From a virus (Duplodnaviria > Caudoviricetes): a DNA stretch of 44,192 nt. The notes beneath the pieces were generated by a model. It made no database searches, was not told the DNA's origin, and saw only the letters and a program-made list of their open reading frames with translations. A program made the translations under genes and the position numbers. Of the stretch, positions 1-44,192 are shown in pieces. Position 1 is the stretch's first letter, and each line of letters starts with the position of its first letter. The stretch lies in the IMG/VR virus record IMGVR_UViG_3300048074_000029, positions 1 to 44,192 of that record; one strand, given 5' to 3'.

Positions 1-130
1 TTCTTATGCCGACGAGCCGCCGCCTCCGCCGTTCGATGGTGATGCCGCCTTCGACGCGGCCGCCTCATCCGGCCATCTCTTCGACGACCGGCCCGCGCAG
101 AAGGCCGCCGCCCCGAAGCCGCGGACCGTC
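1..130. repeat. Terminal direct repeat copy 1 (circular/assembly overlap)
   Basis: 1-130 matches 44063-44192 with one mismatch at position 4 (synonymous TCT/TCC); the reading frame continues across the join. Confidence 0.97.
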
Positions 131-2089: not shown

Positions 2090-2629
2090 ATGTGCGAGAG
2101 GGAATCGTTCTTAGCTATCAGAGGAGGGAGGGTCGCCTGGCTGATCGATAGCGACCGCCACGACGCGATCGTAGAGACCGAGGGGCTCGAGGACAATGAA
2201 CTCTGCGACCGCCGGTTCGTCCGCATCGAGTGCAAGCCAAAAGCCGACCCGTTCTCGACCAACCCGGACGACTGGGAGGTCCAGGAGGACGAGCCCGGCG
2301 GATCGCTCCCGGCGTGGTACGAGCGCGAGGAGTGGGCGCCGCTGATTCTCGACGAGCTGACGCTTCGCCGGATACCGGAGGAGCGGCGGACCGGGATCGT
2401 AGGCAAGCTCGTAATCCCGGCGGGCCAATTGTACCGGCTGCCGTGGCTCCGGACGGCCGCCGACATCTACGTGCACGAGAACGCGAAGCTGGACGCGCCG
2501 GCTCTGACCACGGCCGCCGACATCTACGTGCTCGAGAACGCGAAGCTGGACGCGCCGGCTCTGGCCACGGCCGCCGACATCGACGTGCATAAAAAGGGCG
2601 AACTCAACGCGCCCCTGCTGAAGCGGTAA
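2090..2629 (+). CDS. Phage protein with C-terminal 19-aa solenoid-type repeats
   Basis: GAGGAGG RBS; repeat TAADIYVHENAKLDAPALT x2.4. Confidence 0.8.
   Translation: MCERESFLAIRGGRVAWLIDSDRHDAIVETEGLEDNELCDRRFVRIECKPKADPFSTNPDDWEVQEDEPGGSLPAWYEREEWAPLILDELTLRRIPEERRTGIVGKLVIPAGQLYRLPWLRTAADIYVHENAKLDAPALTTAADIYVLENAKLDAPALATAADIDVHKKGELNAPLLKR
2453..2589 (+). repeat. 57-bp tandem repeat x2.4 (coding)
   Basis: Units start at 2453, 2510 and 2567. Confidence 0.95.
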
Positions 2630-2632
2630 CCC

Positions 2633-2739
2633 CGCCAGTCCCTGCCCGGAGCTGGCGATAAGGACGGGTCCCCGGACGAGCCGGAGAGACAGCACGGGCG
2701 GACGTGCACGGGCGGGAGGATGTTGCGGATCCCCCGCCC
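2633..2739 (+). promoter_or_regulatory. Four consecutive intergenic hairpins
   Basis: CGCCAG/CTGGCG 2633-57; GTC+CCGG 2668-90; GCACG/CGTGC 2692-2707; GGGCGGG/CCCGCCC 2710-39. Confidence 0.45.
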
Positions 2740-2756
2740 AAAAGGAGGAACGAAGG

Positions 2757-3311
2757 ATGAAGTGCTCCGAGTTCGAGCTCGGCAAGGGCGAGTTTTCCAT
2801 CATCGCCACCTATACCGAGCACAACGACGCCGCCGAGTCGGACGAGTCGACGACGATCCGCACCCACGAGCGCGGACGCCCGAGGCTCTACACCGACGCC
2901 GCGACGCTCGCCCTGGCCGCCGAGAAGTACTTCGAGCTCGGCGACCTGAAGGTCCAGCTCCGCAAGATCAACTTCACCGAGAACGACGACGGAAGGTTCG
3001 CGAAAGTTTCGCTCGAGACGCTCTCCGGGATCAAGGTCTCGCCGCCCCGCGTGAAGAGGGAGGAGTACATCGAGCCGGGCGAGGACGAGCCGAACCCGGA
3101 GCACCCGCTGAATGTCTTCCTCGCGGCCGTGGACCTCGTGGAGAACCGGATCAGCGAGTACCTCTCGGGTGACCGCGAGCAGCCGGATCTTCCCGTGAAG
3201 GCGGAGCCGGAGGCGCGGCCCGCGCCCGGCCTCTTCGACCGCGGCAAGGGCGCCGTGGGCGGGCGGCGCAAGAAGGCCGCCGCGGTCCTCGCCGAGACGG
3301 CGGGGGCGTAG
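2757..3311 (+). CDS. Hypothetical phage protein
   Basis: AAAGGAGG RBS; typical codon usage; 184 aa. Confidence 0.8.
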   Translation: MKCSEFELGKGEFSIIATYTEHNDAAESDESTTIRTHERGRPRLYTDAATLALAAEKYFELGDLKVQLRKINFTENDDGRFAKVSLETLSGIKVSPPRVKREEYIEPGEDEPNPEHPLNVFLAAVDLVENRISEYLSGDREQPDLPVKAEPEARPAPGLFDRGKGAVGGRRKKAAAVLAETAGA

Positions 3312-3329
3312 GGCATGGTCTGTGATCTT

Positions 3330-3648
3330 GTCTCGACCGGATTCGACGGGCTTACGGTCACGTCGACTTCGATCGGGATATCGAACTACTCAGCGTGCGG
3401 AGCGTACGACGACCCTATCGAGCTCGTCGCGCTCCGCCCCCTCGGCGCAGGGGTCGAGACCCTGGTCCGCCGGGGGCGCATGGGCGCCGGGCCATATATA
3501 CGTCGCAGGCAGGGCGAGCGCCGAGCCGTGGATGTGGCGCAGTTGCTCAAGTCCATACGGAGGCGAGCAGCGTGGACGCTCGGCTAGATTGTGGCCCTTG
3601 AACGGCAGCATCACCCGAAGCGCCGGGTTCCAGCGCTTAACAAGCTAG
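3330..3648 (+). ncRNA. Candidate structured non-coding RNA
   Basis: At least seven nested or adjacent helices (see findings); fills the largest gap in the early region; the overlapping 90-aa ORF has atypical codons and a weak RBS. Confidence 0.45.
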
Positions 3649-3664
3649 GCCGGCCGCGGTTCTT

Positions 3665-3736
3665 GCGCGAGTAGCTCAACGGTAGAGCAGCGGATCGTAT
3701 GCCGTGGTCGCGGGTTCGACTCCCGCCTCGCGCCCA
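3665..3736 (+). tRNA. tRNA-like element with a non-canonical anticodon arm
   Basis: Perfect 7-bp acceptor stem GCGCGAG/CTCGCGC, D arm GCTC-AACGGTA-GAGC, T arm GCGGG-TTCGACT-CCCGC, then CCA; anticodon arm is 16 nt (4 bp + 8-nt loop). Confidence 0.8.
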
Positions 3737-3758
3737 TAAGCCCCAAGGAGGGGCATTT

Positions 3759-4001
3759 ATGCACTACAGGAACGGAAGAGAAGCCAAGAACGGCGACAAG
3801 GTCGTCCAGCTCGACTTCAGCTCGGGCAAAGTCGTGGGCTTCGGCGTGCTCTACGACGCCGTGCCGGGCAACGACTACTGCAACGGCAAGATCGCGCCGG
3901 TCGGGCTGGATCATCTCGCAGCATGCCTGTGCGACTGCCTGAGCCTCGACGACCTGGAAGCGATCATCGCCGAGAAGGGCCTCGATAAGCGGCCCTTTTA
4001 G
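3759..4001 (+). CDS. Conserved-looking hypothetical phage protein (MHYRNGREAKNGD...)
   Basis: AAGGAGG RBS before ATG 3759; 80 aa. Confidence 0.8.
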   Translation: MHYRNGREAKNGDKVVQLDFSSGKVVGFGVLYDAVPGNDYCNGKIAPVGLDHLAACLCDCLSLDDLEAIIAEKGLDKRPF

Positions 4002-4026
4002 GAAGTAGCCCTTACCAAGGCCGGCG

Positions 4027-4401
4027 ATGAAGCGGAGCGGCTTCGACTGGTGCGTCCATTGCGGGCGCCCGCTCCGCGACGAGGGCAGCCGGGCGGCGGG
4101 GCTCGGGCCGGAGTGCGCGGCGCTCCCGGAGTGCGAGGGGCTCTTGAAGATGATCGCGAGGATTGAGAGGAACGGGCAACCGCTCCTTTTTCGGGAGGGG
4201 ATAGATGGGGGCGCGCAAGCGGACGATAGACCCTGGGATCTGGTCCGACGGAGGCTTTATGCAGCTCTCCGACGGCGCGCGGCTTTTCTTCATCGGCCTC
4301 ATCTCCAACGCGGACGACGAGGGCAGAGGGAGCGCCGTGACGAAAGCCCTGGCCGCGCGCATCTTCCCCAGCGAGGGAGCGGATCGGATCACGGCGATTG
4401 A
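4027..4401 (+). CDS. DUF6011-like zinc-finger protein
   Basis: CxxCGRPLxDxxSxxxGxGPxC motif; the 3' half overlaps the next gene by 197 nt. Confidence 0.65.
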   Translation: MKRSGFDWCVHCGRPLRDEGSRAAGLGPECAALPECEGLLKMIARIERNGQPLLFREGIDGGAQADDRPWDLVRRRLYAALRRRAAFLHRPHLQRGRRGQRERRDESPGRAHLPQRGSGSDHGD

Positions 4402-4615
4402 AGGCTACAAGGCCGAGGTCGTCGAGCACACGCATACGGTTTTCTACGAGGCGGACGGGTCGGCTTACTACGCGCTTTTGAAGTGGAAGGACTACCAGCG
4501 CGTCGACCACCCCCAGCCATCGGCGATCCCGCCGCCATCCATGGCGCGGCAGGCGGGGAGCTTCCGCCCAGCGGCGGCGGTCGAAGAACTTTTTGGAAAG
4601 GCGGCAGGAGCATGA
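4205..4615 (+). CDS. Phage replication initiator, N-terminal DNA-binding domain only
   Basis: ARKRTIDPGIWSD...LSDGARLFFIGLISNADDEGR...IFP...W..YQRVDHPQPS signature; GGAGG RBS; ends at 136 aa. Confidence 0.75.
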   Translation: MGARKRTIDPGIWSDGGFMQLSDGARLFFIGLISNADDEGRGSAVTKALAARIFPSEGADRITAIEGYKAEVVEHTHTVFYEADGSAYYALLKWKDYQRVDHPQPSAIPPPSMARQAGSFRPAAAVEELFGKAAGA

Positions 4616-26983: not shown

Positions 26984-29148
26984 TGGCCCGCTTCGCCCCC
27001 GGCAACCTCGGCCAGACCATGCAGCGCGCGGGCGCCGCGCTCGGGAACCTCGGGCAGACCGTCTTCGACATCGAGGCCGAGGAGCAGTTCCGGACCGGGC
27101 GCCTCGCCCTCGTCTCGAGCCTCGAGAAGTTCAAGCAATCCCTATGGCAGGACCCGGACTACGGCACCCCCGGCCAGGGCGACGGCTACGTCGGCAAGTT
27201 CCAGGAGTTTATGCAGGGCACCAAGGGCCAGCCCGGCGCGGTCGGCGCGACGATCAGCGGCCTGTCGAACGTAATGGCTCAGGGGAAGCTCGACGAGTAC
27301 GCCAAACAGCTCGAGCTCGAGCAGGGCGCGGAGATAGAAGAGCTTCAGTTCAAAAAGTGGGCGGTCGGCACGGTAGCGAAGAGCGACAAGCGCATCCTGA
27401 CGCTCGCCGACTCCCTCTCGGGGCAACAGTTTTTTGACGCCATGGCCGACGAGCTCGAGACCCAGCGCGGGCACAACCTCATCGACGAGCCCGAGTACGA
27501 ACGCAAGGCGTATGAGTTTTCGCAGGTCGCCATTAAGAAAGGGCTGAAGAAGGGCGCCCTCGCTGCGATGGACTCGGCCGCCGATCCATTCGAGGGCTAC
27601 GCCGCGGCGATGAAGTATATCGGCGAGAATTCCGAATCCTTCACCGCCGGCGGGGGAACGTTCACCGCCGGCGAACAGGTCCGGGAAGCCGTCTCGACCG
27701 ACGTAAAGGCCGAGTACGCCATGCGCGAGGCCGCCTTCCAGAAGCGCGGCGAGGAGTTCCTATCCTCCTACCAGACCCAGCTCGACACCGACCCGGAATC
27801 GATCATCTCCGACGTGTCCGCCGAACTAGCGAAGATCGAGGGCCAGAACATCCCAAAGGCCGCCAAGGATAAGGCGACCATGGCCTTGTGGAATCACAAC
27901 GGCGATGCGCTTTACTCCTATAGCTCCAATCGAATCTCGAGCGCTCAGACCCTCGGCGACCTCACCGGGACGCTTCAGTTCCTCCAGGATTCCGGGGCGC
28001 TCTGGCAGGGCAAGCGCCAAGAGCAGGACCGCGCCAGCCTCATCTCGCAGGTCCGCGGGTTGATCGCAGAGCGGGAGCGCGCTGGCGCCGGCGGAGACGA
28101 CAAGGACGTGAAGAAAGCCACGTACGGCATGAAAATCCTGAACGCCAAAGAATCCGTACTTCGGAAGGATATGCCCTCGGAAGAACTCAAGCGCGGGGCT
28201 CGGGTCGAGATCATGGGCTACGGATGGGAAGCCGCTAGCCTCGGGATCGACATCTCCTCCGACATCAACTCGGCGCTCAAGGAGCTTGGAGTAATCACGC
28301 CAAAGGTTGCCGCATCGCTAGACGCGTACGAGGCCATGTACCTGAAGGCCGTTTTCCCTGGGGACAAGGCTCCCGATAAGAAAAAGTTAAGCATTCAGCA
28401 AAACCAAGAACTCGTCAACTTCACTGACACTATCCTCCGCATGGGCGACGAGGGGACAAAGAGGCAAGAAGAGATCGACGCCTACATCGAAGGGGCCCTT
28501 CGAGATCAGACGATAGGCGCCTTCAAAGCAATGCGCGAGGACAAGCTCGGCGGCACGACACTGACGACGGACACGATGCTCGACGCGGTCGGGCTCATCC
28601 AGAGCGGCAAGCTCGCGAACCAGATGCCTGTGGTCGCCGGCCGCCGGATGGTCAACCCGACGATCGACGCGAACGTCAAGAAGGCCGAGGACTACATGGG
28701 CGGCGAGATCGTGAAGCTCGGCTTCACCGATATCACGCCGAAGCCGCAGCCGGACGGGTCCTACGAGTTCGCCGCGAAGCGCCCGGGTCTCGCCCAGCCA
28801 TACCGCCTGAAGCCGCAGATCGACCAGGAGACCGGGAAGATGGTCCTCCAGGAATACATCCAGTCGCGGAAGGCATGGGAGACTTGGAAGAACCCCGCCA
28901 CGGGAGCCGCGGTCCAGATCACCCCGAAGGCCGAGGCACCGCAAGAGAAGGACCGCGAGGAGATCAAGAAGATCGTCTCCACCGGAGGAGATGACCCCGC
29001 GATGATCGCCAACCAGTTTGTAAACGCAATCCTTGGCGGCCGACTGAACCTTCGGTCCGTCCTTACCGCCGGGCCTACCCTTGGAAAATTCGCCGACCTT
29101 CTGCCTCAGCTTGTCTCGGAAGAGTATGAGCGAAGGACTCAGCAGTGA
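26983..29148 (+). CDS. Internal virion (ejection) protein
   Basis: 721-aa helical protein between the small and giant ejection proteins. Confidence 0.7.
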   Translation: MARFAPGNLGQTMQRAGAALGNLGQTVFDIEAEEQFRTGRLALVSSLEKFKQSLWQDPDYGTPGQGDGYVGKFQEFMQGTKGQPGAVGATISGLSNVMAQGKLDEYAKQLELEQGAEIEELQFKKWAVGTVAKSDKRILTLADSLSGQQFFDAMADELETQRGHNLIDEPEYERKAYEFSQVAIKKGLKKGALAAMDSAADPFEGYAAAMKYIGENSESFTAGGGTFTAGEQVREAVSTDVKAEYAMREAAFQKRGEEFLSSYQTQLDTDPESIISDVSAELAKIEGQNIPKAAKDKATMALWNHNGDALYSYSSNRISSAQTLGDLTGTLQFLQDSGALWQGKRQEQDRASLISQVRGLIAERERAGAGGDDKDVKKATYGMKILNAKESVLRKDMPSEELKRGARVEIMGYGWEAASLGIDISSDINSALKELGVITPKVAASLDAYEAMYLKAVFPGDKAPDKKKLSIQQNQELVNFTDTILRMGDEGTKRQEEIDAYIEGALRDQTIGAFKAMREDKLGGTTLTTDTMLDAVGLIQSGKLANQMPVVAGRRMVNPTIDANVKKAEDYMGGEIVKLGFTDITPKPQPDGSYEFAAKRPGLAQPYRLKPQIDQETGKMVLQEYIQSRKAWETWKNPATGAAVQITPKAEAPQEKDREEIKKIVSTGGDDPAMIANQFVNAILGGRLNLRSVLTAGPTLGKFADLLPQLVSEEYERRTQQ

Positions 29149-32100
29149 GCGATCCCTACGAGACCCCGCTCTCGCGCTTCGAGGAGGGCGAATTCCAGAA
29201 GTGGAAGCAGAAGTACGCCCCGAACGACTCCGGCTTCGACTACGACCTCCGCGGCGCCTTCAAGGCCGGGGTCACCCCCGACCCGGCGACGGGCAAGTGG
29301 CCGGACACCTTCAAGAAGCCGAGCAACCCGACCTTCTCCGCCGGGAGCCAGTACAGCACGCTCGCCCCGCCCGCCGAACCGAAACCCGCCGCTTCCCCCA
29401 TCCCCGCCCCGCCCTCCGCGGGCGCGGCCCTCGCACAGGGGAAGGCAGCCGCGCTCTCCGCCGACAGGGCGCCGGGCGCCGCCGGCGCCGCGCTCGCGCA
29501 GGGGAAGGCACAGGCCCAGGCCGCCGAGGAGCCGTACAAGGAATTCGCCGTCCAGCATCCGGACCTGATCGATATCGACCCGGCCGAGTACGACCTCATC
29601 AAGCAGCACGCTCTCGCCGCGAACCCGGACAACCCGGAAGACGAGCTCTATAAATGGGGCACGGCGTTCGCCTTCTCGAAGATCATCCCAGGCACCCAAC
29701 CCGAAGACCTGATCGGCCAGGTCGACAAGCTCACCGAATGGTACACGGGCAAGAGCCAGACCCCGAAGTCGAACTACCGAGCCGTTGCGGACTCATGGCG
29801 GCTCGGCGAGGCCATGTCGAAGTACAACAACCTCGGCGACGACCTCGGAACTCTCGAGGCTCAGCTCGAGGACGCGCTCTCGTCCGGCGACCACCAGGCG
29901 TATTATGCCCTCGTCCCGCAGATCGAAAAGATCAATAAGGACATGGCCGATCAGTACCAGTTCATGGGCCAGCTCGAGGACGCCTACCCCCGGCCGCTCG
30001 GGATTGACCTTCTGAAGGCGGCCGCCGTCTCCGCGCCGTTTACGCTCAAAGCGGTAGTCTCGGGCGCCGCCGCTGGCGCCGTGACGGGCGGGCTCGGAGG
30101 CGGAGCGGCTCTTGTCGGGCTCGTGGCAAAACTCGCCTCGTCCGCCGCGACCATTAAGGAGATAGCGGGCGCCTCGTACCTCGCCCTCCGGGAGTCCGGG
30201 GTCAACCCGCGGCTGGCGCGGGACCTGTCGTCCTTCCTCGACGCCCCCCTCCAGTCCGCTATCGAAACCTCCCTCGGCGAGACCGCGGGCTACCTCGGGC
30301 GCTTCGCTGGAGTCGGGAACCTGTCGGCGAAAGTCGCGCGGCGCATGATAACCCAAGGGACGTGGGGCGCGGTCGGGGCTTCGATCTACCAATACGCGAC
30401 GGGGATCGGCGGGGAGGGCGCGGAAAACCTTCTCCAAGGGCTTTCGACCAATGGAATGAAGGCTATCGCGTCCGTCCTCCAAGAGGAAGGCGTCGAACTT
30501 CCAACGGCCGAAGCGGTCGCCCGTCAAGCGTGGAGCGACTTCTCCACCGGCGTCCAGGGCGCAATCGTACTCGGCGGCCCCGGCCTTGTGATCGACATAA
30601 AGCGCAACGTCCGTGCGGCGGACACTGTCCAGGCCACGAAGAAGGCCCTCGCCACCGAGGAGAAGCCGGAGGCCACCCCGGAGCCCGTCGCAGTCGACGC
30701 CGCAGCTTTCGCCAATCGCGCAGCCGAGCCCCTGCCCGCCGGGACCGTTATCCAGGCCCGCGAGGAGATCGAGGGCGAGCAGTACATCTTGAAGGCCGGG
30801 AATAAGGACTCCGGGGAGCGCGCCGGCTTCGTCCGCTACGAGCTCGACCCGGAGACGCAGACCGCGCGGATCCTCGGATTCGAGAAGGCGGAGCCGAACG
30901 TGCAGGCGTTCCTCGTCCGGGGCCTGGCCGCGCGGCTGCCGGGCTGGAACATCGAGATGGAGCCGAAGACCGGGAGCCAGACCGCCCTCCGGGACTACCT
31001 CATCGCGCAGAACCCCCGCGGCCCGGAGGCGGGCCTTCAGTACAACGAGGCGCCGGCGGCCCGCGTGGACCGCGTGACCGAGGACTACGTGCGCGAGCGG
31101 CTCCAGGAGGTCGCCCCGGGCTGGCAGAAGCCGGACGTGGACCTCGCCGTGAAGGTCCTCCCCATGTGGGCCCGTCGAATGGGCATGACCGGCTCGGAGC
31201 TCGCGGACGCGGCGCTCTCCCGAAACGTGTTCGGCCAGGTGTACAACAAGTCCGCGGCCGCCCAGGCCGAGGGCCCCATCCCCGCCGGCGCGTTCCTCCC
31301 GGTTCGCGAGGGCGAATGGACCCGCGGGCTGATCGACATGGCGCCCAAGGCCAACCCGTCGACCGCGATCCACGAAATGACCCACGCCGTCGTCAACTTC
31401 GCCCGCCAGGCCCGCGAGACCCCCCAGGTCGCGCAGTTCCTCCAGGAGCTCGAGGGGGCCCTCGGCGTCGAGAACGGCAACTGGGAAGCGGAATTCGCCG
31501 GATGGACCGAGGAGTACGCCCCGGCGCGGAACATCGAGAAGACGCGCCAGGACCGCCCTCTCTCGCTTTCCTACCTCGAGGCCCTGACCTACGGCCTCGA
31601 GGACTACTTCGTCACCGGTAAGGCCCCGAAGCCGGAACTCGAGGGGCTCTTCCGCAAGCTCGCCCAGTGGATCCTCGACATCTACGAGGGCATGAAGGGC
31701 GCTCGCGTGAAGATGAGCCCCGAGATGACGGCCTACTTCGACGACCTTATCGGCGGGGAGGGATCGCCCTTCCTTGAAGGCAAGGCGGGCCGTAGCGAGG
31801 CCGACCTCGCTATCCGCGACCGCGAGCTCGGCCAAATACCCCCGGACGCGCTGGAGGCCCAGGAAGGCGCCCCCGCGGCCGCGCGCGAGGAGCGCCGCGG
31901 CATCGCTGGAGCACGTAGAGACCTGTCCTCCGCGCGCGAGCGCATCGCTGCCGGCGAGGACGCCGAGGCGGTCGCACGTGAAACAGGATGGCGCGAGCAG
32001 AACGGCGAATGGCGCCAGGACCGCGCTTTCCAGAGCGCCCCTGAGTACGAGACCGACGAGCGCGAGCGCGCGGTCCAGGAGGGCAAAAGCGCCGAGGGCG

Positions 32101-35100
32101 CGCCGGAGCCCCTCGGCCCCGCGGTCTTCACCGAGAAGGCGTACCCGGCCGAGCCCGAGCAACTCTACCAGGGCGAGGCGGAGCGGGCCGATACGTCGAG
32201 CCCGGAATTCCGCGCGTGGTTCGGCGACTCGACGGTGGTCGACAAGGCCGGTGCGCCTCTCGTCGTCTACCACGGAACGGGCTCAGTGTTCGACGCGTTT
32301 GATCCCACAAAAGCCCGAGACATCGGCATGCATTTTGGGACGAAAAGCCAGGCAAAGAAATTTTCAAATGATCCGGGCGCCTACTACCTTTCAGCGAACA
32401 CCGGCGAAGGAATACTCCCTGACGTATTCTCAAATAAAGATCTCCATTTCTCGGATATTGCCTATGAACTCTACGACGAAGATCTCATCACCATAGATCA
32501 ACGAAAGATCCTCGATGATAAATTTGATACCCCTTATTATCGCGACATGCGAGATCGTGCCACATACGAGGATGATAGGGACGGAGGCGATTTCTGGGAA
32601 GAATACCAAAAAGAACAACGCAACTTCTGGGAGGCCGCAAAGGCTTTGCTTCTCGAAAATGGCGTAACCGGCATCAAGTATGAAAACAAATTTGAAGGGA
32701 GAGGTTATTCTTATGTAGTCTTCTCTCCCTCCCAGATTAAGAGCGTCTTCAACCGCGGGACGTGGGATCCGAACGACCCGCGGATACTCTACCAGTTCGA
32801 TTGGGGCCGGAAGATCCCCACCGAGGAAGGCGCCGGCCAGGCCGCGGTCGATGCGCTACTCGAGGCGAAGTACGGATACGCCGGCCGGATCATCTATCGC
32901 CCGGAGGTCGGATGGCTCGACCTGCCATGGGGCAACATGGGAAATATCGACAAGGACTTCGCGGGCGGAGCCGGGCTTGAGCACATTTGGAAGAAGCACG
33001 AGGAGACCGACCACGTCATCAGCCAGATCGCCAAAATAGCGCAGTACGGCAGGATGGAGGCCGAGCCGGGAAGAAATGATCGGCGGCGTCTATTCATGGG
33101 CCCCTACCGGATGGTCATCCAGCTTGCCCGCGACAACGGAAAGCCCGCGCCGTGGATCGTGACCGCTTTCCTGGAGGAGAAGAAGAGAAAAGGGACGCTT
33201 GCGGCTGGTGGTAACGCGACCGACACAAGGGGTTATACCCCAAGCACCCCCAGCCAGCCCACGGGAACCGCGGGCCTCGCCTCGTCTATTCCCGAGGCTC
33301 TGCCTGGAGATGTCCCCCCAGGCGCCCCCGAGCGGACTCCCTCGGCGGGCAAGCGTAAGCTCATAGTACGCTCGAAACCCGCTCCCGGCAAGACGCTGGA
33401 CCAGAACGACATCAAGCCGCCCGAATCAGGCGGCGGGGCCCTCTTCCAGGGCGACCGCGGCGTCGGAACCGTCGTCTATACCTTCCCGGAGGACCTGAAG
33501 GGCTACTCGGATATCCACTCGCAGGCCCAGCTTCCCGCGAGCATGAACGTCTTCGGCCGCGGCGTTGTGGCCCCGTCCGGCGAGATTCGTCTCGGAAACG
33601 CTGGCAGCTCGCACGTCGGTCTCGCCTCGGGCCTTCAGGACGCGAAGCGGTTCTATTTCGGGTACTCCCGCGAGAAGAAGTCCGTCTACGTCGTCGCGAA
33701 GAACGGCATGGATACCGACTACCTCCAGAAACCGGCGGTGCTTCAGCGGATACTCTCGCAGGTCTTCGACCAGTACCATCTCTCCGTGGCCGGGCGGCTT
33801 CAGTTCGCGGACGCGCTCTTCCAGGGGGAGGCAGAGGAGATCGGCGACCTCGTGGCCGTCCACAACATCAACGCCTCGAAGCTCGCCTTCGCGGACAAGC
33901 TCGGCGGGCTGGCGATGCCGTCCCTCGCAGTCATCAATCGCAAGATCCCCTTCGAATCGTTCGGCGACATTACCCTAGTCGCCCCGAAGACGCGGATCGA
34001 TCCGAAGGTCAACCCGGGCGTAAAGGTGTTCAACGCGGATATCTACTCGCCCAGGTATCCGTCCCTCGAATATAAGATCGACGACAAGAAGCTCATGCCG
34101 ATCGCGGAGAAGATCGCCGATGCGCTCACGCCACTTTATGCAGAGCAAAACCGGAAGCCGAGCAAGTACACAATTGCCGAGAACCTAAAAGACCGATTCA
34201 ATCGCCACGGTCTCGAAGACATAGAATATGACCGGGACCTCGTCGCGTACTGGCGATCCGTAGTTGACAAACAAAAAAGTGCAAAAAAGAAGCTGGTCGA
34301 TTATAAAATCCAGACAGGATCAGAAGAGGAACGATTTATCGTATGGGCGAAAGAAACCTTTGCCCCGCTCCTCGATAATCCCCAGATGTTCAAGGGCTAC
34401 ACGAACGCCGGGAACCGCCGGTATGCCCCGTACACCCTTGAAAACGTCGCCGCGGAGATGAAAAAGGCGGGACTCCAGGGAGGCGAAGGATTCAACTACG
34501 GGCTCCCATCCATCCGCGCGGTCGTCGCCAAGGAGTATAAGTCTCTCGAGGTGATGAAGAAGGACAAGAACAAAATCCTGTCCGACGAGGACTTCGAGAA
34601 AGCGAAAGAGGCGACGGGCACTCTATTTGACGAAATACTGACCCTCGCAGGGGGCAACTCCTCGCGCTTCGTGGACAACCTGATCGAGGGGATACGGCGC
34701 AAGAACATCCGCGCCGAGCTCGAAGAGTTCGGATTCCCCGGCCTGACAGACGAGACCTACGAGAAGATCAATATCCTCATCCAGGTCCTCCGCGACATGC
34801 CGACCGAATACTTCGAGGCCAAGATCAAGGGGACGCTCTCGCTCCAGTCGTTCTATGGGGCCGTCATCCCGCAGTCAGCAGACGCGAAGACCCGCGAGAT
34901 TCTCGACCGCAACGGCATCCGAATCGAGGAGTACAAGGACCGGGACAAGCAGGACCGCGCCGCGGCGATCACGCGCCTCGCTATGGCCCTCGGGCCCGTA
35001 GACATCCTCTTCCAGGGCGAGGCCCTCGCCGACTCCCAGACGCGCATGTTCCAGGGCGACGGCGGCGACGAGGTCGGCGTCTCGACCCTGAAGGACATCG

Positions 35101-38100
35101 CCCGGAGCTTCCCCTCGTGGGAGGAGTTCGCCGCGTTCATCGACGGGACGGACTTCCACGATGCGGACGAGCCCCAGGACCTCGGCCCCGCCGCGCGGAT
35201 GGAGTGGTTTAAGGCCGCATGGCAGGCCGCCCGCGAGCAGAAGCCCGTGGACCTCGAGGACTGGACCCGCCGTCTCGAGGCGGACAACTACTCGGGCCTC
35301 ATCGACTTCCTCGAGGGAATTTGGAACGAGATCCTCCTGCCCTCCTCCATGCGCGACCTTCAGGCCGAGGACATGGAGGGCGTCGATCGGATGCGGGAGA
35401 TGAAGGGCGAGCTCGCCGAGACCATCGTCGCGGGCGCGCAGCGCGTCGGGACCGGGCGGCGAGACTTCGACCCGCGCTTCCTGCGGTCCCTGGCTGGCAC
35501 GATCCGCAAGAACCCGGAGGAGTACGCCCGCATCTACGGCGAGGTCATGGCCCAGCCCGAGATCGGCAAGCTCGGGGCGGCGCGGGAGCGCGAGAAGTAC
35601 GCCGACATCAAGGACCCGAAGATATTCGAGCGAATGAGCATTTCGCAGAAAGCCGTCCTTCGCGAGCGGATCAAGGACGAAGAATTCGGCGCGGCCATCA
35701 TGTCCGGGAAAGTCCAGATGGACGAGAAGGCCCTCGAGCACATCAAGAAAATGGCGGCCGACCAGAAGGCCGCGAAGAAGAAGATCGCCGCGCTCGAGAG
35801 CGAGCTGAAGGCGGCCGAGGGCGGGCTCTCCGCTTCCGAGCGCCGGCTCGCGGCCGCGCGCGCCGAGGCCGCCCGGACGAGCCAGGAGATCGGCCGAACC
35901 CGGAAGCGGATCGAGCGCTTCCTCGCGAAGGGCCAGAAGGTCCCCCGTGGCTACGAGGAGAAGCTCAGGACCCAGGAGCAGCGGGCGAAGGCCCTCCGCT
36001 CCGCCCTCCAGCGCGCCGGCGACTTCGAGGCCCTGACCGCCCAGGCAAAGGCCCTGGACGCCCGGCTCGAGCGCATCGCGGCCGCCGAGTCGACCCCGGA
36101 TCTCCTCGCCCTCCGCTCCCGCCTCCAGTCCGAGCGCCGGGCCTTGGAGCCGAAGCTCGCGGCCGCCGGCGAGAAGTGGAATGACCTCCCGGGCCTCCAG
36201 ACCTACCTCGTGAAGGCCGAGGCCCTCGCCAAGGCCCAGGAGAAGTACCAGACCCGCGACGCCGAGCTCCGGGCCCGGAAGAAGCTCCGGGCCGAGTTTA
36301 CGCGGCTCTCGAATATCATCATGCTCGAGCGCCGACGCAAGCAGACCAAGGATAAGCCCGCAACGATCAACGTCACCCAGGCCAAGGCGATCGCGCAAAT
36401 ACAAGACCTCCTCGACCCGCACTTCCGATCCGAGAAGACGCAGGCGCAGATCGACCAGCTCCGCGCCGAGCTCGAGGCGAACCCGGAGCTCTCCCGCGAG
36501 ATCCCGAAGGAGTGGCTCCGCCGGGCAACGGCGAAGAACCTGAACGAGATGAGCCTCTCCGAGCTTGAGGACATGGCGCGAAAGGTCCAGAACCTCCGGG
36601 CCTTCGGTCGGGCCGTGAAGAAGGCGCGGGACCGGGAGCGCGCCGAGCGCGCCGAGCGCCTCGCCGCCGAGATTACCGCCACCATGCGCGGCGGCCGCGG
36701 CTTCAAGCCCCCGACCGGCTACGATCCGGAAAAGAGCTTCCTTGAGCGCTGGCGCGACCGGCTCCGGGGAACCGATTACGCCTGGCTCTCCATGCGCCGC
36801 TTCTCGAATTGGATGGATGGCGGGAAGGATGGCCTGAACGTTGAGATACTCCACCACGAGATGAACCGCCACTATAACGAGGAGATGCGGGGCATCGACC
36901 GCCGGACGGCCGCTATTCTGAAGGCGTTCGCCGACGCGGGCGTGAAGCCGGAGGACTGGTACGCGCAGACCGTGGACATCGTGGGGGCATTCCCGGGCGG
37001 CGCGACGAAGCCGCTGCGGAAGTCCGACCTCATGGCGCTCGAGATGGCCTTCCGCAACGAGGACAGCCGGGCCGCGGCCCTGTACGGATGCTTTTTCTCC
37101 GAGACCGAGCGCAAGGCCCACGGCCCCAAGAAGCAAGGCGGCGATGGCGACCTCGATTGGTTCGACGCCGAGGGGGCGAAGCGCTTCGAGGCCATCCGGA
37201 AGGCGATCGACTCCGTCCTCACCCCGGCCGACGAGCAAGTCCTCTTCGCCTTCGCCCTCGATGCTGAGTCCGCGGGCTCACGCCTGGCTGAGGTAGTCGC
37301 CGCGGTGGAGAATCGCATCTTCGCGTTTGTCCGCAATTACTTTCCCATTTTCCGCGTAAACGCCGTCAATGAGCCGACCGACGTGCAGATCACCGGGGAC
37401 GTGTTGAACCGGACCGCGGGCCTCCGCCGGCCGCCGAAGAACGGATTCACGAAGAGCCGGACCACGATCCCGCCGTGGAGCCAGACCGAGATTAAGCTGG
37501 ACCTCCTCACCACGTGGCTGTCGGCGATCCAGTCCCAGGAGCATTACCTCGCGACGGCCGAGTACGCGAAGAAGCTGGACGCGGTCTACACGAACGAGCT
37601 CATGCGCGAGCACATCCGCGGGCTCCTCGGGGATCCGGGCGTCGAGTACGTCAAGGAGTACATCACCGAGGTCAAGAATCCGGGCAGTAACCAGAACGTC
37701 AAGCGCTGGGATCAGGCGATCCGGTACCTCCGCGGCAACCTCGGCGCCGCTTATCTCACCTTTCGCGCCTCCTCGACCTTGAAGCAGATCCTCACGAATG
37801 GCTGGGCGTCCCTGCCCTACGCGGGCCCGCGCGTGCTCTCCGAGTCATTCAAGTGCATGGCAAACCCGGTGAAGTATCTCCATGAGACCGAGGCATTGAG
37901 TACATACCTAAAGCACCGAACGCGAGACCTTTCCTATCAGGCAATTAAGGACGCGAAGGCGGCCTCGGGCCCAGCAAAGGCGCTCCTTGCGGCGGAAAAA
38001 ATCGGCGTGAGGGGCCTCGAGCTGGCCGACCGCTTCCCAGTGGCGATCGCTTGGAGGGCGTGCTTCGAGAAGGCCCTCGTCGAGTTCAAGGGCGACGAGG

Positions 38101-38711
38101 TGAAGGCGATCGAGAAGGCCGACGACCAGATCCAGAAAAGCCAGCCCTCCGCCCGCGGCGTCGACCTTGCGCCGATCTACCGCGAAAAGGGCGAGGCGAT
38201 GCGGCTCCTTTTGCAGTTCACTATGCCCCTGAACGTAGTCTGGCAGAACATCCGCTACGACCTTCCGAACGCGATCAAGAATCACCAGTACAGAACGGCG
38301 ATCGGTATCATGATCAGCTACGCCATGGTAGGCGTCATCCTCAACGCCCTCACATCGAAGGCGCCGCCCCCGGACGAGACCGACGAGCAGAAGCGGAAGC
38401 GGCTCGCCTTCTGGGTGCTCTCCCAGGGCACCGACGCGCTCCCGCTCGTCGGTGCTGACGCGACGCGGATACTCCGCCAGGTCATCACGGGGGAGAAGGC
38501 ACCCACCTTCCCGGACACCGCGCTGCCGGGAATCCAGGGGATCTTCGACAGCGTCAGCCAGCTCACGGAAGGCGACCTCGAGCAGGGCCTTCAGAAGTTC
38601 GCCCAGGGCGCCGGGATGATCCTCGGTGTACCGGTCTCGGGCGTTAAGGAACTGATCCGCGCAGGAGAGGGCGACCTCGGCGCCCTGATAGGAAGACCCC
38701 GTGCCGACTAA
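29145..38711 (+). CDS. Giant polyvalent ejection protein (zincin HExxH, LPD23-like, ART-like, BECR RNase-like and unknown modules)
   Basis: 3188 aa; STAIHEMTH; ARETGW...GEWR; FRAWFGDS.VVD..G.PLVVYHGT; GWLDLPWG...GAGLEHIWKKH; DLVAVHN...LGGLAMPSLAV. Confidence 0.85.
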   Translation: MSDPYETPLSRFEEGEFQKWKQKYAPNDSGFDYDLRGAFKAGVTPDPATGKWPDTFKKPSNPTFSAGSQYSTLAPPAEPKPAASPIPAPPSAGAALAQGKAAALSADRAPGAAGAALAQGKAQAQAAEEPYKEFAVQHPDLIDIDPAEYDLIKQHALAANPDNPEDELYKWGTAFAFSKIIPGTQPEDLIGQVDKLTEWYTGKSQTPKSNYRAVADSWRLGEAMSKYNNLGDDLGTLEAQLEDALSSGDHQAYYALVPQIEKINKDMADQYQFMGQLEDAYPRPLGIDLLKAAAVSAPFTLKAVVSGAAAGAVTGGLGGGAALVGLVAKLASSAATIKEIAGASYLALRESGVNPRLARDLSSFLDAPLQSAIETSLGETAGYLGRFAGVGNLSAKVARRMITQGTWGAVGASIYQYATGIGGEGAENLLQGLSTNGMKAIASVLQEEGVELPTAEAVARQAWSDFSTGVQGAIVLGGPGLVIDIKRNVRAADTVQATKKALATEEKPEATPEPVAVDAAAFANRAAEPLPAGTVIQAREEIEGEQYILKAGNKDSGERAGFVRYELDPETQTARILGFEKAEPNVQAFLVRGLAARLPGWNIEMEPKTGSQTALRDYLIAQNPRGPEAGLQYNEAPAARVDRVTEDYVRERLQEVAPGWQKPDVDLAVKVLPMWARRMGMTGSELADAALSRNVFGQVYNKSAAAQAEGPIPAGAFLPVREGEWTRGLIDMAPKANPSTAIHEMTHAVVNFARQARETPQVAQFLQELEGALGVENGNWEAEFAGWTEEYAPARNIEKTRQDRPLSLSYLEALTYGLEDYFVTGKAPKPELEGLFRKLAQWILDIYEGMKGARVKMSPEMTAYFDDLIGGEGSPFLEGKAGRSEADLAIRDRELGQIPPDALEAQEGAPAAAREERRGIAGARRDLSSARERIAAGEDAEAVARETGWREQNGEWRQDRAFQSAPEYETDERERAVQEGKSAEGAPEPLGPAVFTEKAYPAEPEQLYQGEAERADTSSPEFRAWFGDSTVVDKAGAPLVVYHGTGSVFDAFDPTKARDIGMHFGTKSQAKKFSNDPGAYYLSANTGEGILPDVFSNKDLHFSDIAYELYDEDLITIDQRKILDDKFDTPYYRDMRDRATYEDDRDGGDFWEEYQKEQRNFWEAAKALLLENGVTGIKYENKFEGRGYSYVVFSPSQIKSVFNRGTWDPNDPRILYQFDWGRKIPTEEGAGQAAVDALLEAKYGYAGRIIYRPEVGWLDLPWGNMGNIDKDFAGGAGLEHIWKKHEETDHVISQIAKIAQYGRMEAEPGRNDRRRLFMGPYRMVIQLARDNGKPAPWIVTAFLEEKKRKGTLAAGGNATDTRGYTPSTPSQPTGTAGLASSIPEALPGDVPPGAPERTPSAGKRKLIVRSKPAPGKTLDQNDIKPPESGGGALFQGDRGVGTVVYTFPEDLKGYSDIHSQAQLPASMNVFGRGVVAPSGEIRLGNAGSSHVGLASGLQDAKRFYFGYSREKKSVYVVAKNGMDTDYLQKPAVLQRILSQVFDQYHLSVAGRLQFADALFQGEAEEIGDLVAVHNINASKLAFADKLGGLAMPSLAVINRKIPFESFGDITLVAPKTRIDPKVNPGVKVFNADIYSPRYPSLEYKIDDKKLMPIAEKIADALTPLYAEQNRKPSKYTIAENLKDRFNRHGLEDIEYDRDLVAYWRSVVDKQKSAKKKLVDYKIQTGSEEERFIVWAKETFAPLLDNPQMFKGYTNAGNRRYAPYTLENVAAEMKKAGLQGGEGFNYGLPSIRAVVAKEYKSLEVMKKDKNKILSDEDFEKAKEATGTLFDEILTLAGGNSSRFVDNLIEGIRRKNIRAELEEFGFPGLTDETYEKINILIQVLRDMPTEYFEAKIKGTLSLQSFYGAVIPQSADAKTREILDRNGIRIEEYKDRDKQDRAAAITRLAMALGPVDILFQGEALADSQTRMFQGDGGDEVGVSTLKDIARSFPSWEEFAAFIDGTDFHDADEPQDLGPAARMEWFKAAWQAAREQKPVDLEDWTRRLEADNYSGLIDFLEGIWNEILLPSSMRDLQAEDMEGVDRMREMKGELAETIVAGAQRVGTGRRDFDPRFLRSLAGTIRKNPEEYARIYGEVMAQPEIGKLGAAREREKYADIKDPKIFERMSISQKAVLRERIKDEEFGAAIMSGKVQMDEKALEHIKKMAADQKAAKKKIAALESELKAAEGGLSASERRLAAARAEAARTSQEIGRTRKRIERFLAKGQKVPRGYEEKLRTQEQRAKALRSALQRAGDFEALTAQAKALDARLERIAAAESTPDLLALRSRLQSERRALEPKLAAAGEKWNDLPGLQTYLVKAEALAKAQEKYQTRDAELRARKKLRAEFTRLSNIIMLERRRKQTKDKPATINVTQAKAIAQIQDLLDPHFRSEKTQAQIDQLRAELEANPELSREIPKEWLRRATAKNLNEMSLSELEDMARKVQNLRAFGRAVKKARDRERAERAERLAAEITATMRGGRGFKPPTGYDPEKSFLERWRDRLRGTDYAWLSMRRFSNWMDGGKDGLNVEILHHEMNRHYNEEMRGIDRRTAAILKAFADAGVKPEDWYAQTVDIVGAFPGGATKPLRKSDLMALEMAFRNEDSRAAALYGCFFSETERKAHGPKKQGGDGDLDWFDAEGAKRFEAIRKAIDSVLTPADEQVLFAFALDAESAGSRLAEVVAAVENRIFAFVRNYFPIFRVNAVNEPTDVQITGDVLNRTAGLRRPPKNGFTKSRTTIPPWSQTEIKLDLLTTWLSAIQSQEHYLATAEYAKKLDAVYTNELMREHIRGLLGDPGVEYVKEYITEVKNPGSNQNVKRWDQAIRYLRGNLGAAYLTFRASSTLKQILTNGWASLPYAGPRVLSESFKCMANPVKYLHETEALSTYLKHRTRDLSYQAIKDAKAASGPAKALLAAEKIGVRGLELADRFPVAIAWRACFEKALVEFKGDEVKAIEKADDQIQKSQPSARGVDLAPIYREKGEAMRLLLQFTMPLNVVWQNIRYDLPNAIKNHQYRTAIGIMISYAMVGVILNALTSKAPPPDETDEQKRKRLAFWVLSQGTDALPLVGADATRILRQVITGEKAPTFPDTALPGIQGIFDSVSQLTEGDLEQGLQKFAQGAGMILGVPVSGVKELIRAGEGDLGALIGRPRAD

Positions 38712-43361: not shown

Positions 43362-44192
43362 ATGGGGGACACGGTAGAGAAGGGACTGGCCGTCCTCGAG
43401 GAGCGCAGCGTCGCCGAGGTCACGGCCCAGGTCCAGAAGATCCAGGAGCTCATGCGGTCCGTGATGAAGGACGGCGAGCACTACGGCGCGAGCTTCCCCG
43501 GCGACAAGAAGAAGAACCTTCTGAAGCCGGGAGCGGACAAGCTCTGCTTCACCTTCCGGCTCGAGCCTGAGTACGCGATCGAGCGCGACGACCTCCCGAA
43601 CGGGCACCGCGAGTACCGCATCGTGACGACGATCCGCAGTATGGCGACCGGCCAGGCCGTCGCGCAGGGCGTCGGCTCGTGCTCGACGATGGAGTCCAAG
43701 TACCGCTGGAGAAAGACCTACCTCGAGGCCGATGTCGGATCGGTCCCCAAGGCGTACTGGGACGTTGACCGCAACGCGCCGGACTGCCAGACGCGCCGGG
43801 ACGCGATCCTCGTCGGCCTCTTCGGCCAGGGGAAGTATAAGACCAAGAAGATCGACGGCGCCTGGAAGGTCCTGAAGATCGAGGGCGACGGCGAGAAGGT
43901 CGAGAACCCGGACATCGCCGACACCTACAACACCGTCCTCAAGATGGCGAAAAAGCGGTCCTACGTGGACGCGACCATCACCGCGACCGCGGCCTCGGAC
44001 ATCTTCACCCAGGACGTGGAGGAGATGCTCCCGGAGACCCGGCAGGCCGAGGACGCGCACGCTTCCTATGCCGACGAGCCGCCGCCTCCGCCGTTCGATG
44101 GTGATGCCGCCTTCGACGCGGCCGCCTCATCCGGCCATCTCTTCGACGACCGGCCCGCGCAGAAGGCCGCCGCCCCGAAGCCGCGGACCGTC
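43362..44192 (+). CDS. Putative single-strand annealing recombinase, N-terminal part (continues to 478)
   Basis: Translated by hand: MGDTVEK...LLKPGADKLC...GVGSCSTMESKYR...NTVLKMAKKRSYVDATITATAASDIFTQD; near DUF1351; no stop before the window end. Confidence 0.7.
   Translation, partial: MGDTVEKGLAVLEERSVAEVTAQVQKIQELMRSVMKDGEHYGASFPGDKKKNLLKPGADKLCFTFRLEPEYAIERDDLPNGHREYRIVTTIRSMATGQAVAQGVGSCSTMESKYRWRKTYLEADVGSVPKAYWDVDRNAPDCQTRRDAILVGLFGQGKYKTKKIDGAWKVLKIEGDGEKVENPDIADTYNTVLKMAKKRSYVDATITATAASDIFTQDVEEMLPETRQAEDAHASYADEPPPPPFDGDAAFDAAASSGHLFDDRPAQKAAAPKPRTV
44063..44192. repeat. Terminal direct repeat copy 2
   Basis: Matches 1-130. Confidence 0.97.

What the first reader, a model, noticed from the sequence alone, without database searches (positions are those of the whole stretch)
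3665..3736. tRNA mimic: perfect acceptor, D and T arms but no usable anticodon
Seen: three arms are fully paired, while the anticodon arm is 16 nt (GCGG-ATCGTATG-CCGT) and CCA follows the acceptor stem with no separate discriminator base. The body resembles tRNA-Gly (G1-C72, C2-G71, G3-C70). Damage confined to one arm suggests selection on the elbow/acceptor shape. Inference: an RNase P/Z processing signal that matures the upstream RNA (mascRNA-like logic), a decoy for tRNA-targeting defence enzymes, or a non-translational aminoacyl carrier.
Basis: partly seen in the sequence, partly recalled or inferred. Interest (0 to 1): 0.7.

Follow-up and report, generated by a model that had tools for sequence, protein, structure and literature searches.

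The report
tRNA-shaped mark before phage replication genes
A phage carries, just upstream of its DNA-replication genes, a tRNA-shaped sequence whose anticodon arm is too short, and related phages keep only the top half of that shape at the same spot, so it likely serves as a cutting mark for the host's tRNA-processing enzymes and probably does not read codons.

Summary
The tRNA-like element at 3665-3734 is real and is no assembly error: the short arm is identical in runs of three studies besides the possible source. It lies in the early operon of a 44-kb phage, ahead of the replication initiator. Three related phage records carry five such elements in the same slot, and a near-identical strain carries another version. 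[quoted passage not shown] The interior runs from 9 to 94 nt, never with a normal anticodon loop, and the discriminator varies. Selection on the top half is therefore supported; the glycine identity, a meaningful built-in CCA and a matured upstream RNA are not. Best reading (0.5): a cis mark for host RNase P and 3' trimming enzymes in the early transcript, like plant mitochondrial t-elements; cleavage is untested. Main rival: a released decoy RNA (0.2). The scan has already met this kind of element in several other phages; nine literature searches found no paper describing it in phage operons. New variant of a known kind; interest 0.5.

The parts
3665..3734 (+). tRNA-like element, G1 to discriminator C73
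   Evidence: ARAGORN, Rfam RF00005 53.1 bits, model 1-71, fold
3665..3671 (+). Acceptor stem, 5' strand (pairs with 3727-3733)
   Evidence: 7 of 7 pairs; paired with changed sequence in relatives
3674..3688 (+). D arm, 4 pairs, loop with G18 G19
   Evidence: strain X2 shows T3676 and A3686 changed together
3690..3705 (+). Defective anticodon arm, 16 nt: 4 pairs and an 8-nt loop that holds U-CGU-A
   Evidence: identical in runs X1, X4, X5, X8; replaced by a longer domain in X2
3710..3726 (+). T arm, 5 pairs, loop TTCGACT
   Evidence: loop TTCGA(C/T)T in 6 of 6 slot elements
3727..3733 (+). Acceptor stem, 3' strand
3652..3664 (+). 13-nt leader shared with the closest relative, ending in the predicted RNase P cut site at 3664/3665
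   Evidence: same 13 bases at G006:1376, one base before its element; absent from G007 and G008; cut site is inferred
3735..3761 (+). Predicted hairpin that starts one base after C73 and covers the ribosome-binding site and start codon of the next gene
   Evidence: -11.9 kcal/mol, z -2.21, 1 of 200 shuffles as good
3759..4001 (+). 80-aa gene of unknown function, widespread in phages; an accessory insert absent from X2 and L258
   Evidence: 422 relatives in viral contigs; skip 3733 to 4025 in X2; no Pfam, PHROG or PADLOC family
4027..4401 (+). DUF6011 reading frame; directly behind the element in X2 and L258
   Evidence: PF19474 E 3.7e-10
4205..4615 (+). Replication initiator (N-terminal family match)
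   Evidence: phrog_2149 E 2.9e-21; 90% identical in L258
2757..3311 (+). Conserved upstream gene of unknown function used as the anchor for synteny
   Evidence: 11 proteins at E<=0.001 including itself; alignment A2; 3 viral loci
3315..3587 (+). 90-aa open frame in the upstream spacer; coding status unresolved
   Evidence: no homologue; L258 has an 80-aa frame from the same start, BLASTP E 1.2

Best explanation
The element is a tRNA top-half mimic held in a fixed slot of the phage early operon, just ahead of the replication initiator, and it likely works in cis as a mark at which the host's tRNA-processing enzymes cut the early transcript. Shown: the shape, its position, its conservation by paired changes, and the free variation of the decoding half. 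Inferred: the element is transcribed with its neighbours; RNase P would measure the 12 pairs from the T loop and cut before G3665; RNase Z or RNase E plus exonucleases would cut after C3734, or the fold would stay on as a protective 5' cap; either way the message for the small gene, DUF6011 and the initiator would get its own defined 5' end, 14 to 47 bases before the next start codon (1 base in one case), which would set its stability and translation apart from the upstream genes. The window's version looks like a class I tRNA (Thr-CGU-like arm) that lost a base once decoding was no longer needed (inferred).
For: Same slot in every relative found: L258 one element, L299 three, L300 one, plus strain X2. 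Window against L258: 12 of 12 acceptor and T pairs kept, 6 changed on both sides, 1 on one side, though blastn aligns nothing between 3322 and 4024. Over six elements 70 of 72 pair cells hold, G1-C72 and the T loop in 6 of 6; interiors are 9, 28, 32, 38, 45 and 94 nt. A strict top-half descriptor finds 6 matches in four genomes, all in the slot; shuffles give 0.10-0.22 per genome, about 0.004 per 2 kb of one strand. The initiators behind the slot belong to three families (phrog_2149, PF09681, PF14297), so the slot follows the function, not one gene. Internal control: G007 and G008 each keep a normal 7-nt-loop tRNA(CAU) elsewhere. Acceptor, T stem and T loop are what bacterial RNase P reads, and hairpins made of these alone are cut correctly (PMC11143913, passages). 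Precedent: t-elements whose ends match mRNA ends (PMC1920247, section 35).
Against: No cut, end or expression was observed: only contigs were available. The one RNA-library contig over the element (X8, 3653-3836) begins 12 bases upstream of G1 and runs on into the next gene, so uncut molecules (or DNA) exist. None of the elements encodes N73-CCA, and the RCCA contact matters for RNase P in E. coli and B. subtilis, although T4 precursors lack CCA. The descriptor was written after seeing the elements; its looser form gives about 1 chance match per genome. Only three relative records and one low-depth strain contig (depth 2.8) were found. Only 1 of 40 loci with a relative of this initiator has a top half within 1.5 kb upstream, so the link is not general for this initiator family. 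Three tandem copies in L299 and the swapped interior in X2 fit a trans-acting product as well. L258 folds differently once downstream sequence is added.
Confidence: 0.5

Rival explanations
1. The point is the released small RNA: the top half lets host enzymes cut out and stabilise it, and it acts in trans as a decoy or sponge for tRNA-cutting defence nucleases or other tRNA-binding proteins, the interior being a swappable payload.
For: A strain about 99.5% identical downstream (2 differences in 363 bases) has a different D loop and a 42-nt domain in place of the 20-nt one, as expected under conflict; L299 has three copies and a Tad2-like anti-defence gene in the same stretch; full D-T elbow with G18 G19 is kept in the window.
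Against: Known phage counter-defence tRNAs work by decoding in place of the cut host tRNA, not by competition (PMC12445682, section 40). A 9-nt interior (L299) offers no anticodon bait. Constant position before initiators of three families is not needed for a trans decoy. No antisense target was found.
Confidence: 0.2
2. A decayed tRNA gene or recombination relic with no present function; the conserved T arm merely serves as a shared stretch for module exchange.
For: The window's arm is a single base short of a normal one and keeps U-CGU-A; gene content changes exactly at the 3' end of the acceptor stem; T arm plus acceptor strand equals that of many cellular tRNA-Leu genes; folding z only -1.33.
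Against: Both acceptor strands are present and pair; six two-sided changes with no broken pair against L258; 0 of 5 relative elements and not the X2 version has a normal anticodon arm, while real tRNAs of the same phages do; no recognised integrase lies beside it.
Confidence: 0.1
3. An uncut structured leader: the fold shields the downstream message from nucleases or binds a host tRNA-recognising protein to tune translation of the initiator, without cleavage.
For: Ribosome-binding sites start within a few bases of N73 in X2, L258 and L300; a hairpin over the start codon abuts C73 in the window; X8 shows an uncut molecule.
Against: A 7-pair acceptor with G1, a canonical T loop and a single-stranded pyrimidine before G1 is a strong RNase P substrate by the published rules; predicted accessibility of the start region changes little with or without the fold.
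Confidence: 0.1
4. A working threonine tRNA for ACG codons with an arm shortened to escape anticodon nucleases.
For: U-CGU-A is kept; G1-C72 and C2-G71 suit ThrRS (recalled) and the discriminator matters little for Thr (PMC9976931, passage); ACG makes up 195 of 539 Thr codons in 25 window genes; phage tRNA-Thr with shorter stems resist P2-OLD and still decode (PMC12445682, sections 40-41).
Against: Those tRNAs lose a pair by substitution and keep their length; here a base is missing, leaving no 7-nt loop on a 5-pair arm. No relative keeps any anticodon in this slot.
Confidence: 0.06
5. A non-translational aminoacyl carrier (for example glycine for cell-wall or other synthesis).
For: G1-C72, C2-G71, G3-C70 are present.
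Against: Bacterial Gly identity needs U73, C35, C36, all absent; discriminator is C, T or A and acceptor pairs 2-6 vary among relatives; no partner enzyme among the window genes scanned.
Confidence: 0.04

Closest known systems
t-elements of plant mitochondria (Forner et al. 2007, PMC1920247; abstract and section 35 read)
   Same: tRNA-like folds recognised by the T-arm motif, without a decoding role, lying next to mRNA ends; proposed cut marks for RNase P and RNase Z
   Different: Here in a bacterial virus, in one slot before the replication initiator; ends are not mapped; versions range from a minihelix to an oversized cloverleaf
Phage RNase P substrates: C4 antisense RNA of P1/P7 and M3 RNA (named in PMC11143913, passages)
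   Same: Phage RNA cut out of a precursor by host RNase P, in an early or immunity region (region recalled)
   Different: No Rfam C4 match; canonical D and T loops; no antisense target above chance
Bacterial and phage Y RNAs, YrlA (PMC4201824, passages)
   Same: tRNA-like domain with D, T and acceptor-like arms, no working anticodon; one is cut by RNase P
   Different: No Ro60-binding stem, not permuted, no YrlA match in Rfam, no Ro60 gene among the 18 window proteins scanned
Canonical phage tRNAs, including nuclease-resistant tRNA-Thr (PMC12445682, abstract and sections 35, 40, 41)
   Same: Class I body, Rfam tRNA 53.1 bits, CGU triplet between U and A
   Different: Arm one base short; relatives keep no anticodon in the slot
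mascRNA (recalled; one search listing seen)
   Same: tRNA-like fold with reduced anticodon arm that marks an RNase P/Z cut
   Different: No conserved long RNA upstream; the constant neighbour is a downstream mRNA
Candidate tRNA-like structured RNAs of viruses (Fremin et al. 2023, PMC10690425, passages)
   Same: Predicted tRNA-like folds in uncultured phage genomes
   Different: No function or position assigned there; four relative record names were not found in 3 of the 9 supplementary files; the other 6 could not be searched

Membership tests
Canonical decoding tRNA | 7-pair acceptor, D arm, 5-pair T stem with TTCRANY loop | tested here: met
Canonical decoding tRNA | 17-nt anticodon arm with 7-nt loop | tested here: not met
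   16 nt, 4 pairs and 8-nt loop; span 20 nt against 22-23
Canonical decoding tRNA | Aminoacylated and used on the ribosome | not testable with these tools
   needs an assay
tRNA-Gly | G1-C72 and C2-G71 | tested here: met
   identity set
tRNA-Gly | U73, C35, C36 | tested here: not met
   C73; loop holds CGU
t-element (works like) | GGTTCRANYCC T-arm motif within a tRNA-like fold | tested here: met
   3713-3723
t-element (works like) | Not a decoding tRNA; lies beside a protein gene on the same strand | tested here: met
t-element (works like) | Ends coincide with mapped transcript ends | not testable with these tools
   only contigs were served; they cannot show ends
t-element (membership) | Plant mitochondrial genome | tested here: not met
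   tailed-phage record
RNase P substrate | 12 stacked acceptor and T pairs, T loop, G1-C72, single-stranded leader | tested here: met
RNase P substrate | 3' RCCA | tested here: not met
   C-C-A-T after C72; no relative encodes N73-CCA
C4/CI antisense RNA | Rfam C4 match | tested here: not met
C4/CI antisense RNA | Loops complementary to a phage mRNA | tested here: not met
   longest match 9-11 nt, reached by 132-487 of 500 shuffles, 5 elements
YrlA Y RNA | Rfam match, permuted tRNA-like domain, Ro60 gene nearby | tested here: not met
   (18 of the window's proteins scanned)
tmRNA | tRNA-like domain plus tag reading frame and pseudoknots | tested here: not met
   ARAGORN finds no tmRNA; two relative elements hit only the ends of RF00023, 27.5 and 22.8 bits against 47
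Allo-tRNA | 8/4 or 9/3 acceptor branch | tested here: not met
   7/5
mascRNA-like | Conserved long non-coding RNA upstream whose 3' end it makes | tested here: not met

The most novel reading that the evidence does not exclude
Temperate-type phages punctuate their early operon with 'phage t-elements': tRNA top halves placed before the replication initiator, which tie initiator synthesis to the host's RNase P and tRNA 3' processing, while the decoding half is a free, swappable payload (from nothing to a 94-nt branched domain) exchanged even between near-identical strains, possibly as bait in the conflict with tRNA-cutting defences.
Probability: 0.35. Interest if true: 0.75.

Novelty: new variant of a known kind. 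Interest (0 to 1): 0.5.

Why it matters
Phage 'undetermined' or 'pseudo' tRNAs are usually dismissed as decay. Here an allele series in one slot shows which part selection keeps: the surface that tRNA-processing enzymes read. If these marks are cut, phages use host RNase P to shape the message for their replication initiator, a bacterial counterpart of organellar tRNA punctuation and a link between host tRNA metabolism and phage replication. Five of the six slot elements fall below Rfam's cut-off, so the class is under-counted by standard annotation. It is cheap to test in vitro. The scan has noted the same kind in other phages, so this case strengthens a pattern more than it opens one.

Tried and rejected
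Exact and gapped patterns of the window's 5' half and arm found nothing in viral contigs; in metagenome contigs 25 matches were all canonical tRNAs; cultured phages gave only ordinary tRNA matches; so no second copy of this exact version is in those collections. The downstream 80-aa gene is a poor guide: 2 of 79 loci have a T arm within 300 bases upstream. The single upstream protein found no viral locus; its alignment found 3. The upstream 350 bases as a structured RNA: no Rfam family, z -1.66; as a conserved protein: no homologue, E 1.2 to the L258 frame; left open. The 185-nt spacer between two L299 elements folds at z -0.94: no support for a matured RNA there. Antisense function: rejected at chance level. 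No sigma-70 promoter and no plus-strand terminator in 2500-4300, so the element has no evident unit of its own. Expression: RNA-library runs X3 and X8 hold short pieces of the region, X3 not over the element; contigs cannot show level, strand or ends, so nothing is concluded. Host not determined. Attachment-site relic: several viral matches to the 3' 24 bases look like att remnants (L113, L128, L132, L136), but this element has both acceptor strands. No covariance model was built, as the interiors do not align. A check of canonical tRNA-Thr(CGU) arms across a phylum was not made.

Full report
Setting. The window is a whole virus record of 44,192 bases whose first and last 130 bases repeat, so it is probably a complete circular genome. 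It encodes terminase, portal, a GP7-type capsid protein, RusA, a DNA methyltransferase and a replication initiator. The host was not determined. The finding lies on the coding strand of the early region, between a conserved unknown gene (2757-3311) and, downstream, an 80-aa unknown gene, a DUF6011 frame and the initiator (4205-4615).

ARAGORN calls tRNA-??? at 3665-3735 and Rfam scores 53.1 bits against a cut-off of 29; it is the only such match in the record. Acceptor (7 of 7), D (4 of 4) and T (5 of 5) stems are Watson-Crick paired; U8, A14, G18, G19, A21 and the T loop are canonical; the arm at 3690-3705 has 16 bases, folding as 4 pairs and an 8-base loop. The span from position 26 to 49 is 20 bases, against 22 in 23 of 25 and 23 in 2 of 25 canonical tRNAs with the same 5' part. 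The loop still holds U-CGU-A, so the arm reads as a Thr(CGU)-type arm one base short (inference); a cellular-type tRNA in runs X2, X5 and X6 aligns over 3681-3719 with two more bases and no listed change in that core (read by eye). The version is genuine: contigs without a difference cover the arm in X8, X4 and X5, three studies besides the possible source X1 (7 of 10 runs laid). Folding energy alone is unremarkable (z -1.33); the case rests on the covariance score and on the relatives.

The CCA at 3734-3736 is better read as discriminator C73 followed by CA: Rfam ends its model at 3734, none of the five relative elements encodes N73 plus CCA, and C3735-A3736 open a predicted hairpin over the next gene's ribosome-binding site and start codon (-11.9 kcal/mol, 1 of 200 shuffles).

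Relatives decide the question. First, run X2 holds one contig of 504 bases (depth 2.8) that matches the phage downstream with 2 differences in 363 bases but carries another version of the element: 12 other letters and 22 added ones, ten of the twelve itemised, all in the D loop, D stem and anticodon-variable region, including a two-sided change in the D stem; none is listed in the 5' acceptor strand, the 5' T strand or the start of the T loop; the two that are not itemised lie near an end of the aligned piece, so the 3' strands are not proven identical. It has T at position 73, no CCA, lacks the 80-aa gene, and runs through a ribosome-binding site into DUF6011. By eye its 42-base domain has no U33-type 7-base loop. 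Second, L258 (record G006, initiator 90% identical, 15.6 kb of the window alignable) has the same 13-base leader and then an element at 1390-1466 whose 12 acceptor and T pairs all hold, 6 changed on both sides and 1 on one side, although blastn aligns nothing between window 3322 and 4024. Third, a profile of the upstream gene found two distant phages (under 900 bases of the window alignable). L300 has one element with only two small hairpins inside, 27 bases before a Lin1244-type initiator; L299 has three, with interiors of 94, 28 and 9 bases, the last a bare minihelix, ahead of a replisome-organiser initiator. So 3 of 3 relative records found through the anchor gene, and the X2 strain, have the top half in the slot. 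Over the six elements held as sequence, 70 of 72 pair cells hold, G1-C72 and the loop TTCGA(C/T)T are in 6 of 6, and none has a normal anticodon arm. A strict descriptor finds just these 6 in the four records, against 0.10-0.22 per shuffled genome; it was written after seeing them, and a looser form gave 2, 1, 5 and 3 matches against about 1 by chance. G007 and G008 each keep a normal tRNA(CAU) elsewhere, so these phages do preserve anticodon arms where they matter. Against generality: only 1 of 40 loci with a relative of the window's initiator has a top half within 1.5 kb upstream, and 2 of 79 loci with the 80-aa gene have a T arm within 300 bases.

How it most likely works. What is kept (12 stacked pairs, T loop, G1-C72, a pyrimidine before G1) is what bacterial RNase P reads, and hairpins made only of acceptor, T stem and T loop are cut at the right place (PMC11143913, passages). 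What varies (anticodon, D arm, discriminator, acceptor sequence) is what synthetases and the ribosome read. The constant neighbour is downstream: initiators of three families, with the next start codon 24, 14, 27, 47 and 1 base after N73 in five elements. The upstream side is not constant: no Rfam family, z -1.66, an unresolved 90-aa frame, and protein genes in its place in L299 and L300. No promoter or plus-strand terminator was found nearby. I therefore read the element as a cis mark at which host RNase P, and probably a 3' processing enzyme, cut the early transcript and give the initiator message its own 5' end (confidence 0.5). Transcription, cleavage and any effect are inferred, not shown. 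Against it: no RCCA is encoded, which matters for RNase P in E. coli and B. subtilis, though T4 precursors also lack CCA; the one RNA-library contig over the element starts 12 bases upstream of G1 and continues into the next gene, which shows an uncut molecule or DNA; L258 refolds when downstream bases are added.

Rivals. A released decoy RNA (0.2) fits the swapped interior in X2, the three copies and a Tad2-like gene in L299, but known phage counter-defence tRNAs act by decoding, not by competition (PMC12445682, section 40), and a 9-base interior offers no bait. A relic (0.1) is hard to square with the two-sided changes. An uncut protective or regulatory leader (0.1) remains open. A working short-armed tRNA-Thr (0.06) has a precedent in stems shortened by substitution (section 41), not by loss of a base. 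An aminoacyl carrier (0.04) lacks conserved identity. An antisense role was tested and found at chance level in five elements.

Comparison with what is known. It works like the t-elements of plant mitochondria (PMC1920247, abstract and section 35) and recalls phage RNase P substrates such as C4 and M3 RNA and the tRNA-like domain of YrlA (PMC4201824, passages), but it is a member of none: no C4, YrlA or tmRNA match at cut-off, a 7/5 branch unlike allo-tRNAs (PMC5389517, passages), and a review of non-canonical tRNAs does not mention phages (PMC7609411, passages). Nine full-text searches returned no paper on such elements in phage early operons; the library lacks most subscription papers. Fremin et al. 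2023 list candidate tRNA-like folds in viral genomes (passages); four relative record names were absent from the 3 supplementary files searched, and 6 files could not be searched, so an earlier unlabelled prediction is possible. The scan's own notes describe the same kind of element before replication genes in other phages; none covers this DNA. I took the t-element comparison from those notes and checked the paper; they are unchecked AI notes and are not counted as support.

Verdict. Real, conserved in shape, non-decoding in all versions seen; a new variant of a known kind of tRNA-like processing mark, with an unusually clear series from minihelix to oversized cloverleaf in one slot. Interest 0.5; 0.75 if the class and the cut are confirmed.

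Noticed in passing
window 1-130 and 44063-44192: The two ends repeat (130 bases, 99.2% identical), so the record listed as linear and 75% complete is probably a whole circular genome; no integrase was recognised among the proteins scanned.
   Followed up: partly
window 3553-3563; L258 1464-1474; L116 D loop: The same 11-base word CCATACGGAGG stands 110 bases upstream of the element in the window, at the 3' end of the L258 element and in the D loop of the L116 element; it holds a GGA core like a ribosome-binding or CsrA-type site (recalled). Unexplained.
   Followed up: partly
L006 2397-2500: A 94-kb phage has another tRNA-like element with an odd interior directly before its copy of the 80-aa gene, with a similar hairpin over the ribosome-binding site; the DNA match to the window runs from the T arm through the gene (73%), suggesting the gene travels with a tRNA 3' end.
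   Followed up: partly
L115, L122, L125 (about 1455-1524), L116 1499-1587, L123, L131, L134, L080, L083: Unrelated phages carry top halves like the window's with other odd interiors (4-pair arm with 8-base loop, long bulged hairpin, tetraloop, 15-base linker); L083 lies right before a Mu-like transposase-type gene (recalled likeness).
   Followed up: partly
run X5, record 17 (window 3625-3654): A contig leaves the window sequence after 3654, ten bases before the element: perhaps a further version in the same population; its letters were not shown.
   Followed up: no
runs X2, X5, X6 over window 3681-3719: A cellular-type tRNA that seems to join an A1-U72, G73 acceptor with a CGU loop, an unusual pairing for threonine; read by eye from tables only.
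   Followed up: no
L299 3025-3339: Tad2-like (Thoeris anti-defence) gene between the anchor gene and the three elements.
   Followed up: no
window 2757-3311: The anchor protein gives weak PADLOC hits to Cas6 models (best E 7e-4); probably chance, but an RNA-processing fold next to the element would be worth a structure prediction.
   Followed up: no
L258 1345-1384: A strong hairpin (z -3.37) followed by TTCTT directly precedes the element, like a weak terminator; the window keeps only its 3' arm as the shared 13-base leader.
   Followed up: partly
L160 and L249: Arrays of tRNA-like repeats with a shared inner motif; in L160 they lie before an RtcB-like RNA ligase gene (recalled likeness).
   Followed up: no
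window 29145-38711: A 3,188-aa reading frame in the virion region.
   Followed up: no
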